DNA from: Escherichia coli
GTDB taxonomy: Bacteria; Pseudomonadota; Gammaproteobacteria; Enterobacterales; Enterobacteriaceae
Assembly: GCF_041886205.1 (NCBI RefSeq)
Contig: NZ_CP169029.1
Direction: 5' to 3' (one strand)
Length of the DNA stretch: 64,000 nucleotides
Positions 36,947-56,634 of the stretch are shown here, one piece after another. Below the pieces are notes generated by a model. The model was not told the origin of the DNA. It saw only the letters and a program-made list of their open reading frames with translations, and did no database searches. A program made the translations under genes and the position numbers. Each line of letters begins with the position of its first letter. Position 1 is the first letter of the stretch.

Positions 36947-39043
36947 ATGGAAAAGCACGGAGCTGAATTGCTTTTACAGCGGATGTTAGGAAATACCACC
37001 GCTACTTTCAGGAAAGGGCAATGGGAAGCCATAGACGCGGTGGTGAACCAACGGCGAAAACTGCTGGTTGTCCAACGCACTGGCAGGGGGAAAAGTGCCG
37101 TGTACTTCATCGCCAGTAAAATCTTCCGCGATCGCGGTGCTGGCCCGACAATTATCATCTCTCCTTTGCTTGCCCTGATGCGTAACCAGGTTGCCGCCGC
37201 TGAACGGTTAGGTATTACGGCTGAAACGTTGAATTCTACAAACAGGGAAGAATGGCAGCGTATTAGCGATAAGTTGCTGCAAGGTGAGGTCGATTGCTTG
37301 CTGGTTTCCCCGGAACGTTTGGCAAACCAGGACTTTATCGAAACGGTTTTATATCCTATAGCCGATCGTATTGGCTTGCTTGTGGTCGACGAGGCGCACT
37401 GCATCTCTGATTGGGGCCACGATTTTCGCCCGGATTACCGACGTATATTAGATATTTTGCGCCAACTGCCTGCGAATATCCCAGTTCTGGGTACAACCGC
37501 GACAGCGAATAACCGTGTCGTTGAGGATATCCGTCAGCAATTGGGTGACATTGTGATTCAGCGTGGAACGCTGGCTCGCGAAAGTTTGGCGCTTGATGCC
37601 TTAGTCTTAGGTGAACAGTCATCCCGTCTGGCATGGTTAGCAACGGTTATCCCTCAGTTTTCCAAATCGGGAATTGTTTATACCCTGACTACTCGCGATG
37701 CCGAACTTGTCGCCGAGTGGTTAAGGACAAATGGTATCAGTGCATTTGCTTACTACAGCGGCGTGACTTGTGAAGGCGCGGAAGATTCTAATACTGCCAG
37801 GGAATATCTGGAGCAGGCGCTGCTGGCAAATAAAATCAAAGTGCTGGTCGCGACGACGGCATTAGGTATGGGGTTTGATAAACCTGATTTAGGTTTCGTC
37901 ATTCATTATCAAATGCCGGGGTCTATTGTCGGTTACTACCAACAGGTAGGGCGTGCCGGGCGTGCTATAGATTCCGCTGTTGGCATATTGCTTTGTGGTG
38001 GTGAAGACCGCGCTATTCATAAATTCTTCCGTGAAAGCGCCTTTCCTGCGGAGGCGCAAATTCATGAAATACTCAACGTACTTAGCGAGAATGACGGTCT
38101 TACCCTACGAGGCATTGAACAACGGACGAATCTCCGTTATGGGCAAATAGAAAAAGCACTGAAATTATTGGTAGCTGAAAATCCATCGCCTGTGGTGTAT
38201 ACCGAGAAATTATGGCGCAGAACTATCGTCAGTTTCTCTCCTGACCATGAACGAATTAACCATTTGATGAATCAGAGAAAAAATGAGCTGGCAGATGTTG
38301 AAAGCTATATCACGACCAAGGAGTGCAAAATGCAATTTCTGCGCCGCGCACTCGATGAGCCAAGTGCCGAACGTTGTGGTAAATGTAGCAGTTGTCTTCA
38401 GCATCCGTTGCTGTCGCCCGATATTGATAGCGGCTTACTCCATGCGGCAAATTTATTTATTAAACACGCTGACCTGCCATTAAATCTCAATAAACAGGTA
38501 GCATCTGGGGCTTTTACGCAATACGGATTTAAAGGGAACTTGCCTGCGGGTTTACAAGGATCTACGGGGCGAGTCCTTTCTCGTTGGGGAGATTCCGGGT
38601 GGGGAAAGCAGGTAGCACAGGAGAAAAAAACGGGGCGATTCAGTGATGAGCTGGTGGAGGCATGTGCGGAAATGGTTCGCCAACGCTGGAATCCGCATCC
38701 TGAACCAACCTGGGTATGCTGCGTTCCTTCATTAAGGCACCTCGACCTGGTTCCTGATTTTGCCCGGCGACTGGCGGCGAAACTTGGCTTACCTTTTATT
38801 GATGCCATTGAAAAAGTCGTGGACAATCCACCGCAGAATATGCAGCAAAACCGTTTTCACCAGTGTCAAAATCTCGACGGGGCGTTTGTGATTACCCCTC
38901 CTTTGATGCCAGGTCCGGCGTTGCTGGTTGACGATATCGTGGATTCTGCATGGACGCTGACAGTTCTGACAGCACTGTTACGCCAGGCAGGTTGCCCGAC
39001 GGTTTATCCTCTTGCCCTTGCTTCTACCTCGGTAAAAAATTGA
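36947..39043 (+). CDS. RecQ-family DEAH-box helicase with zinc-binding motif and C-terminal phosphoribosyltransferase-like (ComF-like) domain; accessory gene absent from the K-12 gntU-yhgN junction
   Basis: 698 aa ORF with strong SD (aggag, 36936..36940). Motifs: Walker A TGRGKSAVY, RecQ-type motif II VVDEAHCISDWGHDFRPDY, TATA motif, helicase-C QQVGRAGR, Cys cluster C..CGKCSSC, C-terminal PRTase-like LLVDDIVDSAWTL. Confidence 0.88.
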   Translation: MEKHGAELLLQRMLGNTTATFRKGQWEAIDAVVNQRRKLLVVQRTGRGKSAVYFIASKIFRDRGAGPTIIISPLLALMRNQVAAAERLGITAETLNSTNREEWQRISDKLLQGEVDCLLVSPERLANQDFIETVLYPIADRIGLLVVDEAHCISDWGHDFRPDYRRILDILRQLPANIPVLGTTATANNRVVEDIRQQLGDIVIQRGTLARESLALDALVLGEQSSRLAWLATVIPQFSKSGIVYTLTTRDAELVAEWLRTNGISAFAYYSGVTCEGAEDSNTAREYLEQALLANKIKVLVATTALGMGFDKPDLGFVIHYQMPGSIVGYYQQVGRAGRAIDSAVGILLCGGEDRAIHKFFRESAFPAEAQIHEILNVLSENDGLTLRGIEQRTNLRYGQIEKALKLLVAENPSPVVYTEKLWRRTIVSFSPDHERINHLMNQRKNELADVESYITTKECKMQFLRRALDEPSAERCGKCSSCLQHPLLSPDIDSGLLHAANLFIKHADLPLNLNKQVASGAFTQYGFKGNLPAGLQGSTGRVLSRWGDSGWGKQVAQEKKTGRFSDELVEACAEMVRQRWNPHPEPTWVCCVPSLRHLDLVPDFARRLAAKLGLPFIDAIEKVVDNPPQNMQQNRFHQCQNLDGAFVITPPLMPGPALLVDDIVDSAWTLTVLTALLRQAGCPTVYPLALASTSVKN

Positions 39044-40245
39044 TGAATCTTTCAGCCAATGCACAAGCGACTCTCCTGCTAACCAGCGATTTTTCTCGCG
39101 CGGCGGCGAGTGAGCATAAACCTCTTAGTAATAGTGAATGGGGGAAGTTTGCATTATGGCTGAAGCACCAACGTATCAGTCCCGCCGAGCTTCTGGTGCC
39201 GCAACCGCAAGAGAAACTTACAGGCTGGAGCGATCCGCGTATTTCTCAGGAGCGTATTCTTGGCTTGCTGGCGCGCGGTCATAGTCTGGCGTTGGCGGTA
39301 GATAAGTGGCAACGCGCCGGTTTATGGATCATAACCCGAGGAGATGCTGATTATCCCGTTCGCTTGAAAAACCGATTGCGAACGGATGCACCTCCCGTTT
39401 TATTTGGCTGCGGGAATAAAGCATTACTGCAAGCGGAAGGTATGGCGATTGTTGGCTCGCGAGATGCTCCGACTGACGATTTGCGCTATACCCAACAACT
39501 GGCCGCGAAACTGGCCCAACAGGGGATTTGCGTTATCTCTGGTGGTGCGCGAGGTATTGATGAATGTGCAATGGCGTCGGCACTGGAGGCCGGGGGAACT
39601 GCCGTTGGCGTATTAGCTGATAGCTTGTTAAAAACGAGTACGTTAGTGAAATGGCGTGAAGGGCTTATAGCAGGCAACCTGGTGTTGATTTCGCCGTTTT
39701 ACCCAGAGGTGCGTTTCACCGTCGGCAATGCGATGGCGCGAAATAAATATATTTATTGCCTTGCTGAAAGCGCAATGGTTGTACGTGCGGGAATGACCGG
39801 TGGAACGATAACCGGGGCGATAGAGGCATTAAAACATCAGTGGCTGCCTGTGCAGGTTAAACCAAATCAGGATATGCAATCAGCCAATTCACGATTAGTA
39901 GAAAATGGGGCGTCATGGAGTGCTGAACAGGCTGAGAATGTGCCGATCAGACTGTCAGACGTTCCTGGGCTGATGTATGACAGAGCACTCCGTAACGCTC
40001 AACCAGAACTGTTTTCGCTGTATGAAGATGACGCAAATTACGCAGTAATGCCCGCGCATACGCCTGTCGATTTTTATCAACTCTTTGTGGCGGAACTGGC
40101 GATCTTTGCAAAGGAATCGATAAGTATTGAAAGGCTGTCGTCTTGTACTGGTTTAACCATCGAACAAATTAGTGTGTGGCTGAACCGCGCAGAAGAAGAG
40201 GGAAGGGTTATCCGATTGGGCGAAGGTCATTATCAGTTCAGGTAA
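39043..40245 (+). CDS. DprA/Smf-like protein (Rossmann/SLOG-fold core with N-terminal extension and C-terminal winged-helix-like tail); accessory
   Basis: ORF track frame 38950..40245; start taken at MNLSANAQ (39043), whose ATG overlaps the upstream TGA stop (TGATG). Core motifs IVGSRDAP, VISGGARGIDECAMASALEAGG and LISPFYPEVRFTVGNAMARN resemble DprA. Confidence 0.85.
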   Translation: MNLSANAQATLLLTSDFSRAAASEHKPLSNSEWGKFALWLKHQRISPAELLVPQPQEKLTGWSDPRISQERILGLLARGHSLALAVDKWQRAGLWIITRGDADYPVRLKNRLRTDAPPVLFGCGNKALLQAEGMAIVGSRDAPTDDLRYTQQLAAKLAQQGICVISGGARGIDECAMASALEAGGTAVGVLADSLLKTSTLVKWREGLIAGNLVLISPFYPEVRFTVGNAMARNKYIYCLAESAMVVRAGMTGGTITGAIEALKHQWLPVQVKPNQDMQSANSRLVENGASWSAEQAENVPIRLSDVPGLMYDRALRNAQPELFSLYEDDANYAVMPAHTPVDFYQLFVAELAIFAKESISIERLSSCTGLTIEQISVWLNRAEEEGRVIRLGEGHYQFR

Positions 40246-49354: not shown

Positions 49355-51820
<2,466 letters not shown>

Positions 51821-51836
51821 GTTCACTAAAAAACAG

Positions 51837-51866
51837 AACGGGGCCAAAGGGTCCCGTTTTTTTTCG
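51837..51866 (+). terminator. glgP rho-independent terminator
   Basis: Stem aacggggcc/ggtcccgtt with loop aaag followed by a run of eight T. Confidence 0.8.
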
Positions 51867-51936
51867 CCATCATTTCGGAAAAGTGTCCAGAAGGGGCAAG
51901 GGGACTCGGGGAGTATAATTTCGCCATTCAGAAAGA

Positions 51937-53454
51937 ATGGAAAGAATAATGCAAAACAGAAAATGGATTTTGACCTCGCTGGTAATGACTTTTTTCGGCA
52001 TCCCCATACTGACGCAATTTTTGGCAGCGGTTGTTGCTATGCTGGGGGGCGGGCTTGCCGCTATTCTTGAGGTTTGCAATTTACTCTTTACGCCAGCAAT
52101 TTATCTTCTACTCAACGTCTTTATGCTGACTCTGGGGGCGATAATAATATTTTTCTCTGGTCGCGTGTGGGCGGGCGATAGTGCACCAGAAAAAAAAGAA
52201 ATAGCCGTCTGGCGACAATGTCTTTTTTTAGTACCTGCTTTATTCACCCTGGTTGGCTGGATAATCACGCTACATCTGGCAGATTATCAATTTCGCCAGA
52301 TGGGAGACGGTTGGTTGGCAAACCTTATGCTTCCCTGGTTGGGCATTTTTTTAGTCTCATTAGTGGGTGGTGAGTACTGGTGGATAGTCATTATACCCGT
52401 TGGCGCGCATATCAGTTTTTCGCTGGGGTACGGTTGGCCGACCAGACATCTTTTAACGGGCACGTCCGGGTTACGTTGCCGTAATTCCCTCTTGTTTATC
52501 CTTCTCATGCTTGGTTTTGTCGCCGGTTACCAGGCTTATTTATATAAACAGCTTAATCCCGGCGTCGGTGTCCGCGAAAATATTGATACCTGGGCCTGGC
52601 GACCCGATAAACTCAATAATCAACTGACACCATTACGTGGTAAACCGCAAATTCAGTTTACGCAAAACTGGCCGCGACTCGATGGTGCTACGGCGGCGTA
52701 CCCAATTTATGCCTCTGCCTTTTATGCGTTGAGCGTTATACCGGAAGATTTTCACACCAGGGAATATCTGGAGAACTCTCATACCCCCGATGCATATAAC
52801 AGGATTGTTAAAGGTGATGCCGATATTATTTTTGTGGCGCAACCCTCCGGTAGGCAGAAAAAACGCGCTGAGGAATCGGGCGTCACTTTGCTATACACGC
52901 CATTTGCCCGTGAAGCATTCGTTTTCATCGTCAATGCGGATAATCCGGTTAATTCCCTGACTGAACAACAGGTGCGTGACATCTTCAGTGGTGCAATTAC
53001 CAACTGGCGTACTGTTGGCGGTAACGATCAGGAGATCCAGACCTGGCAACGCCCGGAAGACTCTGGCAGCCAGACGGTGATGCAATCACAGGTCATGAAA
53101 AATGTCCGCATGATCTCGCCGCAGGAAACAGAAGTGGCAAGTATGATGGAGGGAATGATTAAAGTCGTTGCCGAATACCATAATACAAAGAACTCAATTG
53201 GCTACACCTTCCGCTATTACGCCACGCAAATGAACGCTGACAAGAATATCAAATTGTTAGCGATTAACGGTATTGCACCCACTGCGGAAAATATCCGTAA
53301 CGGCAAATATCCGTATATCGTCGAGGCATTTATGGTAACGCGGGAAAATATGACCTCAGAAACACAAAAATTGGTGGAGTGGTTTTTAACGCCGCAGGGG
53401 CAGAGCCTGGTGGAAGATGTAGGTTATGTGCCGATGTATAAGACGCTACCTTAA
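51937..53454 (+). CDS. Polytopic membrane domain fused to a C-terminal PstS-like (phosphate-binding-protein fold) periplasmic domain; K-12 has only the yzgL pseudogene here
   Basis: 505 aa ORF; N-terminal ~200 aa hydrophobic, C-terminal region with PBP-like motifs (DGATAAYPIY..., SGSQTV). A TATAAT-like element lies ~25 bp upstream. Start may be M1 (51937) or M5 (51949). Confidence 0.75.
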   Translation: MERIMQNRKWILTSLVMTFFGIPILTQFLAAVVAMLGGGLAAILEVCNLLFTPAIYLLLNVFMLTLGAIIIFFSGRVWAGDSAPEKKEIAVWRQCLFLVPALFTLVGWIITLHLADYQFRQMGDGWLANLMLPWLGIFLVSLVGGEYWWIVIIPVGAHISFSLGYGWPTRHLLTGTSGLRCRNSLLFILLMLGFVAGYQAYLYKQLNPGVGVRENIDTWAWRPDKLNNQLTPLRGKPQIQFTQNWPRLDGATAAYPIYASAFYALSVIPEDFHTREYLENSHTPDAYNRIVKGDADIIFVAQPSGRQKKRAEESGVTLLYTPFAREAFVFIVNADNPVNSLTEQQVRDIFSGAITNWRTVGGNDQEIQTWQRPEDSGSQTVMQSQVMKNVRMISPQETEVASMMEGMIKVVAEYHNTKNSIGYTFRYYATQMNADKNIKLLAINGIAPTAENIRNGKYPYIVEAFMVTRENMTSETQKLVEWFLTPQGQSLVEDVGYVPMYKTLP

Positions 53455-53556
53455 GCAGGATAATCATATGGATACCGGTATTATTCACCTGAACGCGGCG
53501 AATGTTCGTTTTGTTTATCAACCATTTACACGCGACCAGCGGAAGAGGGGGTAATT

Positions 53557-54333
53557 ATGCAACCCAGCCCCGCCATGCAGGCATTAATTGAGCAGATTTA
53601 TTATATTTTTCGTCGTTATCCTGTGCCATCGAGATTTCATGTTTGTTGTCCTTACTGTTTTAGCGAAGAACAACAACAAGCCTTAAGAGGGGTTTCACTG
53701 CGTGCCATACCTTTTCCTTTATTACATGCCTGGGGAACAAGTATTGGCCCTAACCCACAAAATGATGATGAGATTCGCTATTTATTACCCAGATTGTTTG
53801 AATTAATTGCCCAAAGGCAATTTCCAGGCATTTATGAAGGCTGCTGTTTACAGAGAATAGCAGAGGCAGATAACCAGAACTGGCGAAGGGATGAACTACA
53901 AATAATTAGCGATTTCGCCTATTTATATATGCAGGATTGGGTGTCGGCTAAGGAAGTCGTGGAACTGGAAATAATATTAGAAATGTTTTATCGCGGTGGT
54001 ATAAAGATTGAACCCTTACTTGACTCTATTATGTCCATTTCCGGTTACTGGCCGACGGCGTCTATGGCATGTTTGCTCTGGCGTAACAGTAAAGAATACG
54101 TCGAAAATAGCGATTTTGAGCAGAGTGATGATAATAAAACTATTACCACCCAAATCAATACTTGGGCTAGAAACAATCATCCTTTGCTGAAAGAAAGAGC
54201 GCGGCAAGCGATTGAGAACCCACTAAAACAGCCCGAACCAATGACAGAATATCAAGTCTGGGAAGACGACTGGATGATTGATGAGTGTTTATGCGCGATG
54301 TATGACGCATCACCTGAACAATCAGGACAATAA
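53557..54333 (+). CDS. Hypothetical cytoplasmic Cys-containing protein, AT-rich gene
   Basis: 258 aa ORF with strong SD (agaggggg) and no TM segments; codon usage visibly AT-rich compared with flanking glg/glp genes; no family recognised by eye. Confidence 0.65.
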   Translation: MQPSPAMQALIEQIYYIFRRYPVPSRFHVCCPYCFSEEQQQALRGVSLRAIPFPLLHAWGTSIGPNPQNDDEIRYLLPRLFELIAQRQFPGIYEGCCLQRIAEADNQNWRRDELQIISDFAYLYMQDWVSAKEVVELEIILEMFYRGGIKIEPLLDSIMSISGYWPTASMACLLWRNSKEYVENSDFEQSDDNKTITTQINTWARNNHPLLKERARQAIENPLKQPEPMTEYQVWEDDWMIDECLCAMYDASPEQSGQ

Positions 54334-54335
54334 AG

Positions 54336-54935
54336 ATGAAGAAAATCAGACTTTATATTTATCCGCTATATCTCGGCTTTGTTATTGTGCCGTTGTTGGT
54401 ATGGCCGACGGTGGTTGCGCTGGTTGTTGTTGGTATCACACTGAGTTTTCTGATGGAGATGCTGTTCTCAAATTCGTTCATGCACAGGCGTATTTCCCTT
54501 CTGGAATTACAACTTGGGTTATTGGCTGAATATACGCTTTTGTTCTGCGCCATATGTTACGTTGGTTGGCAATTTGCTTCCAGAACTCAATCTGAATTGA
54601 AAAGCAGACTGCATTGTTGGTTGGTATTTGCACCAGTTTATTTCTGGTTGTTCCTGTGGGATATCATTTTCTATGTCGCGCCAGCGAAAATTACATTGCT
54701 GGAAAATATGCGCAGTTTCTTTCTGACCGTTGTCTGGCTCCCACTGAATTTTTCGCCATTTTGGCCTCAGCCGTGGACTGACTTTATCGGTCCGATAAGT
54801 GCACAGCTTGGGTTTGCGTTAGGATATTACTGCCATTGGCGCAGCAAAAATAGAAGCCAGAGGCTGAAGTGGGGGGAGTGGGGAACGTGCCTGAGTTTTG
54901 TTACGTTGGGTATGATGGCGTGGGCTTTACGGTAA
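54336..54935 (+). CDS. Hypothetical small polytopic membrane protein
   Basis: 199 aa ORF starting 3 bp after the previous stop; 4-5 predicted hydrophobic helices; AT-rich. Confidence 0.6.
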   Translation: MKKIRLYIYPLYLGFVIVPLLVWPTVVALVVVGITLSFLMEMLFSNSFMHRRISLLELQLGLLAEYTLLFCAICYVGWQFASRTQSELKSRLHCWLVFAPVYFWLFLWDIIFYVAPAKITLLENMRSFFLTVVWLPLNFSPFWPQPWTDFIGPISAQLGFALGYYCHWRSKNRSQRLKWGEWGTCLSFVTLGMMAWALR

Positions 54936-54984
54936 TTCTCTGACTCAAAAAGTAGGTCAGATTGTTGACAAAGTGCACTTTGTT

Positions 54985-55066
54985 CATGCCTGATGCGGCG
55001 TGAACGCCTTCTCAGGCCTACAAAATCATGCAAATTCAATACATTGCATAAACCACGCATCAGGCA
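54985..55066. repeat. REP elements between the accessory module and the glpD 3' end
   Basis: tgcctgatgcggcgtgaacgccttctcaggcctaca (54988..55022) matches the REP consensus; a partial inverted unit (cgcatcaggca) lies near 55056. Confidence 0.7.
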
Positions 55067-55128
55067 ATTTTGTGTTTATCATCAGTCTCAGGTCAGATTG
55101 AAATCTGACCCGGCCACCTTACGTTAAA

Positions 55129-56634
55129 TTACGACGCCAGCGACAACTTCTGCTGCGTATACTCCACCAGCCATTGGCTAATGCGTGACTGCTGTTGCGC
55201 ATTCAGCCACATGCCTTGTTTTGTGCGACGCCACAGGGCATCGTCGGCGCGGCGGACCCATTCGTGATCCACCAGGTATTTCAGTTCCGCTTCGTAGAAC
55301 TCATGACCGAAATCCTCCCCGAGGTCGCTTACCGTCCCCGCATTGCCGAGCAGCAGCTCGCTGTTGCTGCCGTAAGTGCGTGCGTAATGACGCGCCAGCG
55401 ATTCGGTCAGGAACGGGTAACGGCGGCGCAGGCGGGCGGCGTAGTCATCGCGGTCGCCCTCGATGGCACCACCCGGCAGCACGCTCTCTTTCGTCCACGC
55501 CGGGCCAATGCCCTGATAATACGGCGTCAGTTTTTCCAGCGCATGTTCCGCCAGTTTGCGGTAGGTGGTCAGCTTACCGCCGAATACCGACAGCAGCGGT
55601 GCTTTGCCGTTTTCATCATGGATATCAAGGGTGTAATCACGGGTAATGGCTTGCGGCGAGTCGGACTCATCATCACACAGCGGACGCACACCGGAGTAGG
55701 TCCAGACGATATCGTCACGGCTTAGCTGCTTTTTAAAGTGCGCGTTATACACTTTCAGCAGGTAGTTGATTTCACTCTCTTCAATCTTCACCGCTTTTGG
55801 ATCGCCTTTGTATTCCACATCGGTGGTGCCGATGATGGAAAACTCGTCCATCCACGGGATCACGAACACAATACGTTTATCTTCGTTTTGCAGAATGTAG
55901 GCTTGCTTCTGGGTATGCACGCGTGGCACCACAATATGGCTGCCTTTGATCAGGCGAATGCCATAAGGCGAAGGCAGGTGCATCCCGTCGTCGAAGAACT
56001 GCTTCACCCACGGGCCGGTAGCATTAACCAGGCCGCGCGCCTGCCATGTATATTTTTTGCCGGTATCGATATCTTCCGCTTCCACAATCCACAGGCCGTT
56101 TTCGCGGCGAGCAGAGGTGGCGCGAGTCCGAGTAAGCACTTCGCCGCCTTTACGCACCACCATCTGGGCGTTGGCGAGTACCAGACGGGCGTCGTCTACC
56201 CAACAGTCAGAATATTCGAATCCGCGCTTAATTTCCGGTTTTAACACTGAGTTTGCGCCAAAACGCAAACCGGTTGATCCCGGCAGGCTGGTGCGTTTAC
56301 CCAGATGATCGTACATAAACAGACCAATGCGAATCATCCACGCCGGGCGCAGATGCGGACGATGCGGCAGGCGAAAACGCATCGGGAAGGCGATATGAGG
56401 GGCCATTTTCAGTAGCACTTCACGTTCAGCCAGCGCCTCGCTGACCAGGCGGAATTCATAGTGCTCAAGGTAGCGCAGGCCACCGTGAATGAGTTTTGAA
56501 CTGGCGGAGGAGGTCGCGCAAGCGAGATCCTGCGCCTCCAGCATCAGCACGGATAAACCGCGTCCAGCGGCGTCTGCCGCGATACCAGCACCATTGATGC
56601 CGCCCCCTATCACAATCAGATCTTTGGTTTCCAT
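55129..56634 (-). CDS. glpD: Aerobic glycerol-3-phosphate dehydrogenase GlpD
   Basis: ORF 55129..56649; start METKDLIVIGGGINGAGIA (56634) gives the remembered 501 aa protein. Confidence 0.95.
   Translation of the reverse strand: METKDLIVIGGGINGAGIAADAAGRGLSVLMLEAQDLACATSSASSKLIHGGLRYLEHYEFRLVSEALAEREVLLKMAPHIAFPMRFRLPHRPHLRPAWMIRIGLFMYDHLGKRTSLPGSTGLRFGANSVLKPEIKRGFEYSDCWVDDARLVLANAQMVVRKGGEVLTRTRATSARRENGLWIVEAEDIDTGKKYTWQARGLVNATGPWVKQFFDDGMHLPSPYGIRLIKGSHIVVPRVHTQKQAYILQNEDKRIVFVIPWMDEFSIIGTTDVEYKGDPKAVKIEESEINYLLKVYNAHFKKQLSRDDIVWTYSGVRPLCDDESDSPQAITRDYTLDIHDENGKAPLLSVFGGKLTTYRKLAEHALEKLTPYYQGIGPAWTKESVLPGGAIEGDRDDYAARLRRRYPFLTESLARHYARTYGSNSELLLGNAGTVSDLGEDFGHEFYEAELKYLVDHEWVRRADDALWRRTKQGMWLNAQQQSRISQWLVEYTQQKLSLAS

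What the first reader, a model, noticed from the sequence alone, without database searches (positions are those of the whole stretch)
51871..55128. Three-gene AT-rich module between glgP and glpD where K-12 has only a pseudogene remnant
Between the glgP terminator and the glpD 3' end lie three same-strand ORFs with their own promoter-like element (tataat near 51914). Codon composition is visibly AT-richer than the flanking glg and glp genes, indicating horizontal origin. From memory, K-12 carries only the short pseudogene yzgL here, so K-12 looks like the decayed state of this module. The function of the intact module is unknown to me.
Basis: partly seen in the sequence, partly recalled or inferred. 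Interest (0 to 1): 0.55.

Follow-up and report, generated by a model that had tools for sequence, protein, structure and literature searches.

The report
Old variable islet between glgP and glpD
The three genes are real and AT-rich, and K-12's yzgL is their deletion scar, but they are a rare allele of an old, much-reshuffled enterobacterial islet (O-island 133 of E. coli O157:H7) whose first gene encodes a membrane-anchored phosphate-binding-like protein of untested function.

Summary
Three intact same-strand genes lie between glgP and glpD: orf1 51946-53454, orf2 53557-54333 and orf3 54336-54935. Their GC is 42-47%, against 51-56% in the flanks.

K-12 yzgL is a scar. One deletion, equivalent to window 52171-54870, joins orf1 codon ~75 to the last ~21 codons of orf3.

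The horizontal-origin reading is only partly right. The islet has no mobility genes and no plasmid or phage copies. It occupies the same site in other Escherichia species, Superficieibacter, an unnamed Enterobacteriaceae bacterium and Salmonella. It is EDL933 O-island 133.

- orf1 is an N-terminal multi-pass membrane domain fused to a PstS-like binding domain that is probably periplasmic.
- orf3 is a stand-alone paralogue of that membrane domain.
- orf2 is a cytoplasmic helical protein from a large unnamed family.

The window form is itself reduced: the orf1-orf2 spacer holds the remnant of a fourth gene. Its orf2 allele occurs in only 16 of 5426 complete E. coli genomes, and other alleles differ at saturated synonymous sites (dS about 1.7-2).

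Function is untested. My best guess, at low confidence, is a membrane-tethered oxyanion-binding receptor.

The parts
51837..51864 (+). Imperfect hairpin plus T-run after glgP (AACGGGGCCAAAGGGTCCCGTTTTTTTT). It is the probable glgP terminator and the upstream boundary of the islet.
   Evidence: Sequence read. It is nearly identical in K-12. The simple terminator scan did not call it because the stem is imperfect.
51914..51919 (+). Perfect -10 hexamer TATAAT with no recognisable -35. It is a candidate activator-dependent or weak promoter for orf1.
   Evidence: Position. It is conserved in K-12. The two-hexamer scan did not call it and there is no Pho box nearby. K-12 yzgL is listed with a -2.0 value in a CpxR-regulon microarray table, so the region gives a measurable transcript signal (PMC2731931).
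51946..53454 (+). orf1: an N-terminal multi-pass membrane domain (about aa 1-200) fused to a PstS-like periplasmic-binding-protein domain (about aa 245-500). The start is uncertain: ATG 51937, RefSeq ATA 51946, or ATG 51949.
   Evidence: - Domain: Pfam PBP_like_2 at 2.1e-29, aa 247-482. NCBIfam TIGR02136 scores 122.6 bits, below its cut-off of 206.6. The closest solved structures are PstS proteins, E about 1e-18.
- Membrane part: five strong hydrophobic peaks. K+R bias is 9 in / 1 out for a 5-pass N-in/C-out model, against 6/4 for a 6-pass model.
- Distribution: the interior is present in 3342 of 5426 genomes.
52171..54870 (.). The stretch missing in K-12. One deletion joins orf1 codon ~75 to the last ~21 codons of orf3 and creates the 93-aa YzgL reading frame.
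   Evidence: By blastn, K-12 positions 1-471 match window 51700-52170 and positions 459-900 match 54871-55292, a 13-nt overlap. The same junction occurs in 1261 of 5426 genomes.
53468..53554 (+). A 28-codon remnant of a fourth gene (the 236-aa 'YbbD family' protein of the four-gene form). It keeps that gene's start, its last ~22 codons, and its stop next to the orf2 ribosome-binding site.
   Evidence: Alignment with the four-gene locus L002 and with SaT040. Protein tails: RLNAANARFVYQPFTRDQRARG against HLNAANVRFVYQPFTRDQRKRG. The gene is full-length in 2326 genomes and remnant-only in roughly 690.
53557..54333 (+). orf2: a 258-aa cytoplasmic all-helical protein with invariant C30 and C34 (motif VCCxYC). 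This is a rare allele of a large unnamed family.
   Evidence: - Databases: no Pfam, NCBIfam, PADLOC or PHROG match.
- Family size: 1600 clusters at E<=1e-3.
- Allele: only 16 of 5426 genomes are >=80% nt identical; 2995 are at 60-80%.
54336..54935 (+). orf3: a 199-aa membrane protein, a stand-alone paralogue of the orf1 membrane domain. Its start lies 2 nt after the orf2 stop.
   Evidence: hhalign of the orf3 family against orf1 N-termini gives probability 96%, E 4.8e-9; joint alignment. The AF2 model has pLDDT 67, and its best Foldseek hits are the N-terminal parts of PstS-family fusion proteins from Salmonella salamae and E. coli. Present in 3838 of 5426 genomes. Junction sequence.
54982..55018 (-). 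REP-type repeat in the orf3-glpD spacer (sub-threshold match to the REP-derived naRNA4 family). It marks the downstream boundary of the islet.
   Evidence: Rfam RF02564 at 28.6 bits against a gathering score of 59.5, E 0.027. K-12 carries a 20-nt insertion at this spacer.

Best explanation
**What it is (confidence about 0.9).** This is the glgP-glpD variable islet of E. coli, EDL933 O-island 133. It is an old, fast-evolving, low-GC accessory operon. It has sat at this site at least since the Escherichia-Salmonella-Superficieibacter ancestor and has been reshuffled and lost many times. This strain carries a rare three-gene allele that has already lost a fourth gene. K-12's yzgL is a single-deletion scar of the islet.

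**How it probably works (confidence about 0.3-0.35).**
- orf1 is an inner-membrane protein. Its multi-pass N-terminal domain tethers a PstS-like binding domain in the periplasm, where that domain binds a tetrahedral oxyanion (phosphate or a look-alike).
- The membrane domain is the docking partner of the binding domain. The two are fused in orf1. In BL21, O157 and E. marmotae they also occur split, as a lipoprotein binding protein followed by orf3.
- orf3 is therefore a second copy of the receptor's membrane half. Here it has no binding protein of its own.
- orf2, whose stop is 2 nt from the orf3 start, is a cytoplasmic partner.
- The output is unknown. It could be ATP-independent uptake, or a signal into phosphate or virulence regulation.

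**Shown:** gene structure, domain content, paralogy, deletion history, distribution and purifying selection.
**Inferred:** topology, ligand class, docking and any output.
For: **Identity and history**
- The window is 100% identical to NZ_AP045833.1, with the same three genes annotated.
- K-12 deletion endpoints and microhomology.
- Remnant of the fourth gene.
- Same site occupied in E. albertii, E. marmotae, E. whittamii, Superficieibacter, an unnamed Enterobacteriaceae bacterium and Salmonella.
- A 2026 paper describes a glp-glg 'hotspot A' with seven structural types (PMC13185298).

**Selection**
- dN/dS is 0.13-0.35.
- dS reaches 1.7-2.0 in orf2, against 0.14-0.18 in the flanks.

**Mechanism**
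- orf1 has a PBP_like_2 / PstS-like domain.
- Aligned with E. coli PstS, the equivalents of R135, S139 and G140 are kept and T141 becomes S. The WQRPEDSGSQT block is invariant between orthologues that are only 51% identical overall.
- The BL21 paralogue of the binding domain has a lipoprotein signal (LAGC). Its mature N-terminus aligns with the linker that follows the orf1 membrane domain. Together with the positive-inside count (9/1 against 6/4), this places the orf1 binding domain in the periplasm.
- orf3 is homologous to the orf1 membrane domain.
- A third paralogue of that domain is fused to a different C-terminal domain in E. albertii.
- The genes are tightly spaced.

**Weak functional hints**
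- Deleting OI-133 lowered type III secretion in a screen of EHEC island mutants (PMC3378721).
Against: - No experiment addresses any of these proteins.
- orf1 and orf3 are not obligate partners.
  - At least ~500 genomes keep orf3 without orf1. B2 strains carry a fimbrial operon in place of orf1.
  - Some genomes keep orf1 alone (L029 and L033).
- The PstS Asp56 equivalent is not conserved, and the N-lobe alignment at 22% identity is uncertain, so the ligand is not established.
- There is no Pho box and no adjacent permease or ATPase genes.
- The orf3 model is only moderately confident (pLDDT 67), and the membrane domain resembles no known transporter or sensor.
- Distant orf2 relatives never sit next to binding proteins or orf3-like genes.
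- Repeated loss shows the islet is dispensable.
Confidence: 0.4

Rival explanations
1. A conflict-system cassette array. The islet would be a recombination hotspot that collects immunity-type or defence-type genes. orf2, the YbbD-like gene and perhaps the membrane proteins would protect against toxins or phages from competitors. That would explain the deeply diverged alleles kept in the population.
For: - Within-species divergence is extreme at a syntenic site: orf2 dS 1.7-2.0 and orf3 dS 0.9, against 0.14-0.18 in the flanks.
- There are two linked allele classes of orf2 and orf3.
- Cassettes are swapped at conserved junctions: the YbbD tail, and the ASPESSGQ tail shared by orf2 and the BL21 lipoprotein.
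- Tandem orf2 paralogues occur in L008.
- Cargo in relatives includes an MkoA-like SF1 helicase with DUF2726 and an ankyrin-repeat protein that hits PADLOC models.
- Salmonella STM3527, at this site, is homologous (E 2e-12) to the K-12 ORF just downstream of an orphan Rhs fragment.
Against: - None of the three window proteins, nor the YbbD-like protein, matches any PADLOC model or any Pfam immunity family.
- There is no toxin gene in the islet in any form examined.
- Six contexts of distant orf2 relatives show no toxin neighbour.
- dN/dS is well below 1.
- This reading does not explain the conserved PstS-like domain of orf1, which is the most constant member of the islet across genera.
Confidence: 0.2
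2. The RefSeq label is literally correct. orf1 would be an extra PstS that delivers phosphate to the PstCAB ABC transporter, merely anchored to the membrane. orf2 and orf3 would be unrelated passengers.
For: - PBP_like_2 and TIGR02136 similarity.
- The closest solved structures are all phosphate-binding proteins.
- The R-x-x-x-S-G-S anion-binding motif is conserved.
Against: - The score is far below the curated family cut-off: 122.6 against 206.6 bits.
- orf1 is about 22% identical to E. coli PstS, and the Asp56 equivalent is lost.
- There is no Pho box, and pstCAB lies elsewhere on the chromosome.
- A ~200-aa conserved membrane domain with its own paralogues is much more than an anchor needs.
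Confidence: 0.15
3. One reading: a horizontally acquired island inserted between glgP and glpD in some E. coli lineages, with K-12 holding a decayed copy.
For: - Low GC and GC3 relative to the flanks and to the rest of the window.
- Patchy presence among strains.
- Catalogued as an O-island, that is, absent from K-12.
Against: - The same frame is at the same site in several genera whose flanking glgP and glpD are 88-91% identical in protein.
- There is no integrase, transposase, tRNA or flanking repeat.
- There are no genuine plasmid or phage copies. The three 'plasmid' hits are 4.8-4.9 Mb records and the 'phage' hit is a Salmonella chromosomal contig.
- An acquisition before these genera split cannot be excluded, but it would no longer explain the strain-to-strain pattern.
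Confidence: 0.1
4. A functionless relic: genes that drift and are being lost, with no current role.
For: - Independent losses and replacements:
  - the K-12-type deletion in 23% of genomes;
  - the fimbrial replacement in B2 strains;
  - orf1 fragments in Salmonella;
  - IS1 insertions.
Against: - Purifying selection (dN/dS 0.13-0.35) persists across divergences where synonymous sites are saturated.
- ORFs are intact in 55-71% of genomes.
- Binding-site blocks are strictly conserved between genera.
Confidence: 0.1

Closest known systems
PstS, the periplasmic phosphate-binding protein of the PstSCAB ABC transporter (E. coli PstS; NCBIfam TIGR02136 'PstS family'; Pfam PF12849 PBP_like_2)
   Same: - The C-terminal ~255 aa of orf1 have the same domain (Pfam E 2.1e-29).
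- Solved PstS proteins are the nearest structures.
- The R135 / S139 / G140 / T141 anion-binding positions are kept, as R, S, G, S.
   Different: - A conserved ~200-aa multi-pass membrane domain replaces the signal peptide.
- The score is below the curated cut-off.
- The Asp56 equivalent is not conserved.
- It is not next to pstCAB and has no Pho box.
[not shown]
   Same: - Same chromosomal site and same islet.
- yzgL is the 5' end of orf1.
   Different: - O157 and BL21 carry orf1 + lipoprotein PstS paralogue + orf3.
- The window carries orf1 + YbbD-gene remnant + a rare orf2 allele + orf3.
Substrate-binding proteins tethered to or dependent on membrane partners: binding domains fused to ABC permeases (OpuA / GlnPQ type) and the SBP-dependent secondary transporters (TRAP, TTT). 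Named from general knowledge.
   Same: A periplasmic binding domain is physically coupled to a multi-pass membrane domain. The same pair also occurs as separate genes (lipoprotein + orf3), as in families where binding protein and membrane component are fused or split.
   Different: - There is no ATPase and no ABC permease signature.
- The membrane domain matches no Pfam family. By structure it matches only its own relatives.
- Transport is not shown.
Orphan immunity-gene arrays and defence-island hotspots
   Same: - Cassette-like turnover between conserved flanks.
- Deeply diverged alleles.
- Tandem paralogues.
- Defence-like or ankyrin cargo in some relatives.
   Different: - There is no toxin or known defence gene in the window form.
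- There is no match to PADLOC or to Pfam immunity families.
- The first gene is a conserved binding protein.

Membership tests
PstS family phosphate ABC transporter substrate-binding protein (the RefSeq name of orf1) | PBP_like_2 / type II periplasmic-binding fold | tested here: met
   Pfam PF12849 at E 2.1e-29, aa 247-482. PDB PstS chains match at E about 1e-18.
PstS family phosphate ABC transporter substrate-binding protein (the RefSeq name of orf1) | Score at or above the curated family cut-off (TIGR02136, 206.6 bits) | tested here: not met
   122.6 bits, and only aa 284-500 match.
PstS family phosphate ABC transporter substrate-binding protein (the RefSeq name of orf1) | Phosphate ligands of E. 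coli PstS (T10, S38, D56, R135, S139, G140, T141; residue list from memory of the 1IXH literature) | tested here: inconclusive
   R135, S139 and G140 are conserved and T141 becomes S. S38 aligns with T. A GAT motif is present but is shifted by 2 in the MAFFT alignment. D56 aligns with A or Q. Overall identity is 22%.
PstS family phosphate ABC transporter substrate-binding protein (the RefSeq name of orf1) | Encoded with, or serving, PstC/PstA/PstB and under Pho-box control | tested here: not met
   There are no permease or ATPase genes in the islet. pstSCA lies elsewhere in K-12. The best Pho-box match upstream is 8 of 14 positions, which is background level. Functional service to PstCAB cannot be tested here.
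PstS family phosphate ABC transporter substrate-binding protein (the RefSeq name of orf1) | Exported soluble protein or lipoprotein (cleavable signal peptide or lipobox) | tested here: not met
   orf1 has about 200 aa of hydrophobic helices in place of a signal peptide. The BL21 paralogue does have a lipobox, LAGC.
Horizontally acquired genomic island | Composition unlike the host chromosome | tested here: met
   GC is 0.42-0.47 against a window mean of 0.535. orf2 is the lowest of 37 ORFs.
Horizontally acquired genomic island | Mobility genes, a tRNA or other attachment site, flanking direct repeats, or copies on mobile elements | tested here: not met
   None is annotated or found. There are no genuine plasmid or phage copies.
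Horizontally acquired genomic island | Absent from the syntenic site of related species | tested here: not met
   orf1 directly follows glgP in five other Escherichia lineages, Superficieibacter and an unnamed Enterobacteriaceae bacterium. Salmonella has an orf1 remnant plus a YbbD-like gene there.
Known anti-phage defence system (PADLOC-DB 2.0) | At least one protein matching a defence-system model | tested here: not met
   No hits at E<=1 for orf1, orf2, orf3 or the YbbD-like protein. Only cargo in other genera hits: an MkoA-like helicase and an ankyrin protein.
Polymorphic-toxin immunity genes | Adjacent cognate toxin, or membership of a described immunity family | tested here: not met
   No toxin in any form of the islet. 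No Pfam hit at E<=10 for orf2 or orf3. Six contexts of distant orf2 relatives lack toxin genes.
Polymorphic-toxin immunity genes | Hypervariable alleles at a fixed locus | tested here: met
   Alleles of orf2 and orf3 are 63% and 66% identical in protein within E. coli, while orf1 is 93%. orf2 dS is 1.7-2.0.

The most novel reading that the evidence does not exclude
The ~200-aa membrane domain shared by orf1, orf3 and the E. albertii 375-aa protein would be an undescribed docking module for periplasmic ligand-binding domains, confined to Enterobacteriaceae. It would form an ATPase-free, binding-protein-dependent receptor (uptake or signalling) for a phosphate-like anion. Its diverged alleles would be maintained by selection, for example because the periplasm-exposed complex is exploited by toxins or phages. 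The reported drop in type III secretion on deleting OI-133 in EHEC would then be a regulatory output of this receptor.
Probability: 0.2. Interest if true: 0.65.

Novelty: new variant of a known kind. Interest (0 to 1): 0.35.

Why it matters
The locus is already catalogued: as yzgL in K-12, as O-island 133 in O157:H7, and as a glp-glg 'hotspot' in a 2026 typing paper. I found no published description of what its genes are.

This work adds four things:
- an exact account of the K-12 scar;
- the recognition that even the 'intact' forms are reduced mosaics;
- the finding that the islet is ancestral to several genera rather than a recent import;
- a domain-level reading (a membrane-tethered PstS-like domain, a stand-alone copy of its anchor, and a split lipoprotein + anchor version in other strains) that gives concrete, cheap experiments.

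If the receptor idea is right, it would add a new way of coupling a binding protein to the membrane. It might also explain an unexplained virulence-screen phenotype in EHEC. If it is wrong, the islet is still a clear example of within-species divergence exceeding typical between-genus divergence at a fixed chromosomal site.

Tried and rejected
1. **Pho regulation.** A scan for the Pho-box repeat found nothing upstream of orf1 (8 of 14 positions, background level). The two-hexamer promoter scan did not call the TATAAT either.
2. **Defence system.** PADLOC gave no hit for the window proteins. PHROGs gave only the generic phosphate-binding family for orf1.
3. **orf2 fold assignment.**
   - Foldseek found only uncharacterised proteins.
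   - Six genomic contexts of distant relatives were heterogeneous and uninformative.
   - Two cluster look-ups returned almost no names.
4. **The 'YbbD family' label as a lead to Rhs immunity.** The 236-aa protein shows no BLAST similarity to the K-12 rhsD-ybbC-ylbH-ybbD region. It matches NF007301 only over 43 residues at 22.6 bits against a cut-off of 373, and it has no Pfam family. I dropped the link. A different Salmonella gene at this site, STM3527, does resemble the ORF after the orphan Rhs fragment.
5. **orf3 fold search.** Nothing was found beyond its own relatives, and the model is only moderately confident.
6. **Mobile-element origin.** There are no real plasmid or phage copies and no bounding repeats.
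7. **Known RNAs.** Only a sub-threshold REP/naRNA4 match.
8. **Not done.** A full-length orf1 model and any complex prediction were not possible within the structure-prediction cap.

Full report
**1. The observation**

The ORF list shows three same-strand ORFs between glgP (49373-51820) and glpD (minus strand, 55129-56634). They are 51937-53454 (505 aa), 53557-54333 (258 aa) and 54336-54935 (199 aa). The window is 100% identical to E. coli wlxctx60 (NZ_AP045833.1, from a bear faecal isolate). RefSeq annotates the same three genes there: a 'PstS family phosphate ABC transporter substrate-binding protein', with its start placed at 51946 (an ATA codon), and two hypothetical proteins.

- GC is 0.471, 0.417 and 0.450, against 0.512 for glgP and 0.564 for glpD.
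- GC3 is 0.50, 0.38 and 0.52, against 0.58-0.65.
- Among the 37 long ORFs of the window, orf2 has the lowest GC and GC3, about 3.7 and 3.1 sd below the mean. orf1 is about 2 sd low in GC.

The ORFs are real genes. Against other alleles, dN/dS is 0.13-0.15 for orf1, 0.14-0.17 for orf2 and 0.22-0.35 for orf3.

The TATAAT is at 51914-51919 and is conserved in K-12. It has no usable -35, and promoter-like sites in the region are no more frequent than in shuffles. No Pho box is present.

**2. K-12**

BW25113 has only the pseudogene yzgL between glgP and glpD. K-12 matches the window continuously from glgP through the promoter region and the first ~225 nt of orf1, up to window 52170. It resumes at window 54871, inside the last ~21 codons of orf3. 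The two matches overlap by 13 nt of imperfect microhomology: GGTCGCGTGTGGG in orf1 and GGGGGGAGTGGGG in orf3.

So yzgL is not simply a fragment of the 505-aa ORF. It is an orf1'-'orf3 fusion left by one deletion of about 2.7 kb, or more if the ancestor had four genes. The same junction is present in 1261 of 5426 complete E. coli genomes.

**3. The 'intact' module is itself reduced and is one of many forms**

The 102-nt orf1-orf2 spacer encodes a 28-codon mini-ORF (53468-53554). It keeps the start and the last ~22 codons of a 236-aa gene that lies between orf1 and orf2 in other strains. RefSeq calls that gene 'YbbD family protein' or hypothetical.

Counts in 5426 complete genomes:

| Feature | Genomes | Share |
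|---|---|---|
| orf3 | 3838 | 71% |
| orf1 interior | 3342 | 62% |
| orf2 family | 2958 | 55% |
| YbbD-like gene, full length | 2326 | 43% |
| K-12-type deletion | 1261 | 23% |
| Lipoprotein PstS paralogue replacing the middle genes (BL21, O157:H7) | 884 | 16% |

In B2 strains a seven-gene chaperone-usher fimbrial operon replaces orf1, while the YbbD-like gene, orf2 and orf3 remain.

The window's own combination is rare. Only 6 genomes match the whole 3.6 kb at >=99%. Only 16 carry an orf2 at >=80% nt identity; the other 2995 are at 60-80%.

Protein identity between the window and a common allele (L002) is 93% for orf1, but 63% for orf2 and 66% for orf3. Synonymous divergence is 0.27-0.33 in orf1, 1.7-2.0 (saturated) in orf2 and 0.3-0.9 in orf3, against 0.14-0.18 in glgP and glpD.

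The window's orf2 allele also occurs in a longer form: YbbD-like, a 40%-identical orf2 paralogue, then orf2 and orf3 (L008).

**4. Age and origin**

The islet is not on any genuine plasmid or phage record. It has no mobility genes, tRNA or bounding repeats.

It is at the same site in:
- E. albertii: orf1, a 375-aa protein, YbbD-like, orf2, orf3 and an ankyrin protein;
- E. marmotae, which has the BL21-like form;
- E. whittamii and two unnamed Escherichia lineages;
- Superficieibacter sp.: orf1, YbbD-like, an MkoA-like SF1 helicase with DUF2726, a second YbbD-like, orf2, orf3 and a secreted repeat protein;
- an unnamed Enterobacteriaceae bacterium: orf1 plus two secreted proteins.

In Salmonella Infantis/LT2 the site holds a secreted protein, the C-terminal third of orf1 (STM3528; 70% identity over 134 aa), a YbbD-like gene (55% identity over its full length) and the lipoprotein STM3527. 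A full-length 507-aa fusion exists in S. enterica subsp. salamae (Foldseek hit).

In Superficieibacter, glgP and glpD are 89-91% identical to the window proteins, whereas orf1, orf2 and orf3 are 51%, 51% and 35%. The simplest reading is an ancestral, fast-evolving, frequently lost and recombined islet, not a recent insertion. An acquisition before these genera diverged cannot be excluded.

**5. What the proteins are**

*orf1.*
- Pfam PBP_like_2 covers aa 247-482 at 2.1e-29.
- TIGR02136 (PstS family) scores 122.6 bits, below its cut-off of 206.6.
- The nearest solved structures are PstS proteins.
- Aligned with E. coli PstS, the equivalents of R135, S139 and G140 are kept and T141 becomes S. 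S38 aligns with T. A GAT motif corresponding to T10 is present but ambiguously aligned. D56 is not conserved. The residue list comes from my memory of the PstS literature.
- Blocks such as WQRPEDSGSQT are invariant between orthologues only 51% identical overall.
- The first ~200 aa are hydrophobic helices with no Pfam match.
- A five-pass N-in/C-out model gives K+R of 9 inside and 1 outside, against 6 and 4 for six passes.
- The BL21 paralogue of the binding domain is a lipoprotein (lipobox LAGC). Its mature N-terminus aligns with the orf1 linker after the last helix.
- Together these place the orf1 binding domain in the periplasm. This is inferred, not shown.

*orf3.*
- It has no family match.
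- It is homologous to the orf1 membrane domain: hhalign probability 96%, E 4.8e-9, with the shared motif A-Q/H-x-x-F-A/S-L-G-Y.
- The best structural matches of its AF2 model (pLDDT 67) are the N-terminal parts of PstS-family fusion proteins, and nothing else.
- A third paralogue of the domain is fused to an unrelated C-terminal region in the E. albertii 375-aa protein.
- The family was found only in Escherichia, Shigella and close relatives.

*orf2.*
- It has no match in Pfam, NCBIfam, PADLOC or PHROGs.
- The AF2 model is confident (pLDDT 89.5) and all-helical.
- It has many uncharacterised ~250-aa neighbours in AFDB from several phyla.
- A profile search finds 1600 clusters at E<=1e-3.
- C30 and C34 are invariant in the close family.
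- Contexts of six distant members are unrelated to one another and contain neither toxins nor binding proteins.

**6. How it most likely works**

The only component with a known biochemical precedent is the PstS-like domain. The strongest structural clue is of the fused-versus-split kind. Binding domain and membrane domain are fused in orf1. In BL21, O157 and E. marmotae a second pair occurs as separate adjacent genes, lipoprotein then orf3. That argues that the membrane domain is the functional partner of the binding domain rather than a passive anchor.

I therefore favour an inner-membrane, periplasm-facing oxyanion receptor, with orf3 as a second membrane half and orf2 as a cytoplasmic partner (its stop is 2 nt from the orf3 start). 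Whether the output is uptake or signalling is open.

Weak external hints:
- Deleting OI-133 lowered type III secretion in an EHEC island-deletion screen (PMC3378721; repeated in a review).
- STM3527 clusters with SPI-2 co-regulated genes (PMC2639726), but it is unrelated to the window genes.

Points against the model:
- orf1 and orf3 occur without each other in many genomes.
- The ligand is unproven.
- The membrane domain resembles nothing known.

I put the mechanism at about 0.3-0.35 and the identity and history at about 0.9.

**7. Rivals**

- *Conflict-system cassette array (0.2).* This fits the deep allelic divergence, the junction-mediated cassette swapping, the tandem paralogues, and the helicase, ankyrin and Rhs-linked cargo in relatives. 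Nothing in the window form matches a known defence or immunity family, and no toxin is nearby.
- *Extra PstS for PstCAB (0.15).* This is the literal RefSeq label. It fails the curated cut-off, lacks Pho control and leaves the conserved membrane domain unexplained.
- *Recent horizontal acquisition (0.1).* This is contradicted by synteny across genera and by the absence of mobility features.
- *Functionless relic (0.1).* This is contradicted by purifying selection across saturated synonymous divergence.

**8. Comparison with what is known, and novelty**

The locus is already catalogued: K-12 yzgL, EDL933 O-island 133, and 'hotspot A' with seven structural types in 83 strains (PMC13185298). I found no functional study. 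A search for yzgL returned only incidental mentions, including a -2.0 value in a CpxR-regulon table.

The existence of the module and the pseudogene status of yzgL are therefore known. Within the searched library, the following appear new:
- the exact deletion;
- the remnant of the fourth gene;
- the paralogy between orf3 and the orf1 membrane domain;
- the fused/split pairing with a PstS-like domain;
- the cross-genus antiquity of the islet.

I class it as a new variant of a known kind (a substrate-binding protein with an unfamiliar membrane partner) in an already known variable locus, and I rate interest as moderate to low (0.35).

Noticed in passing
window 54936-55128 (REP-like match at 54982-55018, minus strand): The orf3-glpD spacer holds a REP-type palindromic repeat with a sub-threshold match to the REP-derived naRNA4 family (28.6 bits against 59.5). 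K-12 has a 20-nt insertion at this spacer.
   Followed up: partly
window 51946: RefSeq starts orf1 at an ATA codon (51946), one codon before an in-frame ATG (51949) and three codons after another (51937). The same start is used in other strains and for K-12 yzgL. The true start is unresolved.
   Followed up: partly
[not shown]
   Followed up: partly
L011 4564-7263 and L032 11291-13987 (Superficieibacter sp.): An 899-aa SF1 helicase with AAA_11, AAA_12 and DUF2726 domains, resembling the Mokosh MkoA/MkoC helicase models (E 3e-44), lies inside the islet between two YbbD-like paralogues. This suggests defence-type cargo can lodge there.
   Followed up: partly
L026 8108-8527 (Salmonella STM3527) and L016 8097-8357 (K-12, just after the orphan Rhs fragment ylbH): The Salmonella lipoprotein STM3527, encoded next to glpD in the same islet, is 43% identical over 51 aa (E 2e-12) to the 86-aa K-12 ORF that follows an orphan Rhs C-terminal fragment, which is the usual place for an immunity gene. 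STM3527 is also listed among SPI-2 co-regulated genes (PMC2639726).
   Followed up: partly
L018 4094-5221 and 7400-8452 (E. albertii): The E. albertii islet has two extra genes. One is a 375-aa protein whose N-terminal ~195 aa are a third paralogue of the orf1/orf3 membrane domain, fused to an unknown C-terminal region. The other is a 350-aa ankyrin-repeat protein that hits PADLOC ankyrin models.
   Followed up: partly
L004 2780-3772 (BL21) against window 54310-54333: The BL21/O157 lipoprotein PstS paralogue ends in ...ASPESSGQ, the same tail as orf2 (...ASPEQSGQ). The middle cassettes seem to be exchanged at a conserved junction just upstream of orf3.
   Followed up: no
L034 (Terrisporobacter mayombei DSM 6539, 477-bp contig): A 477-bp, low-coverage contig in a Clostridia assembly encodes the first 25 residues of orf1 at 96% identity. 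This is almost certainly E. coli contamination of that assembly.
   Followed up: no
window 36947-40245: Two other long ORFs in the window (36947-39043 and 38950-40245) also have low GC3, about 0.47, against a window mean of 0.60. I did not examine them.
   Followed up: no
window 49373-51820 and 55129-56634 (glgP and glpD) against L002 and L007: The flanking core genes differ from other E. coli strains at dS 0.14-0.18. From memory this is high for within-species comparisons and might reflect recombination spreading out from the variable islet. It was not compared with a genome-wide baseline.
   Followed up: no
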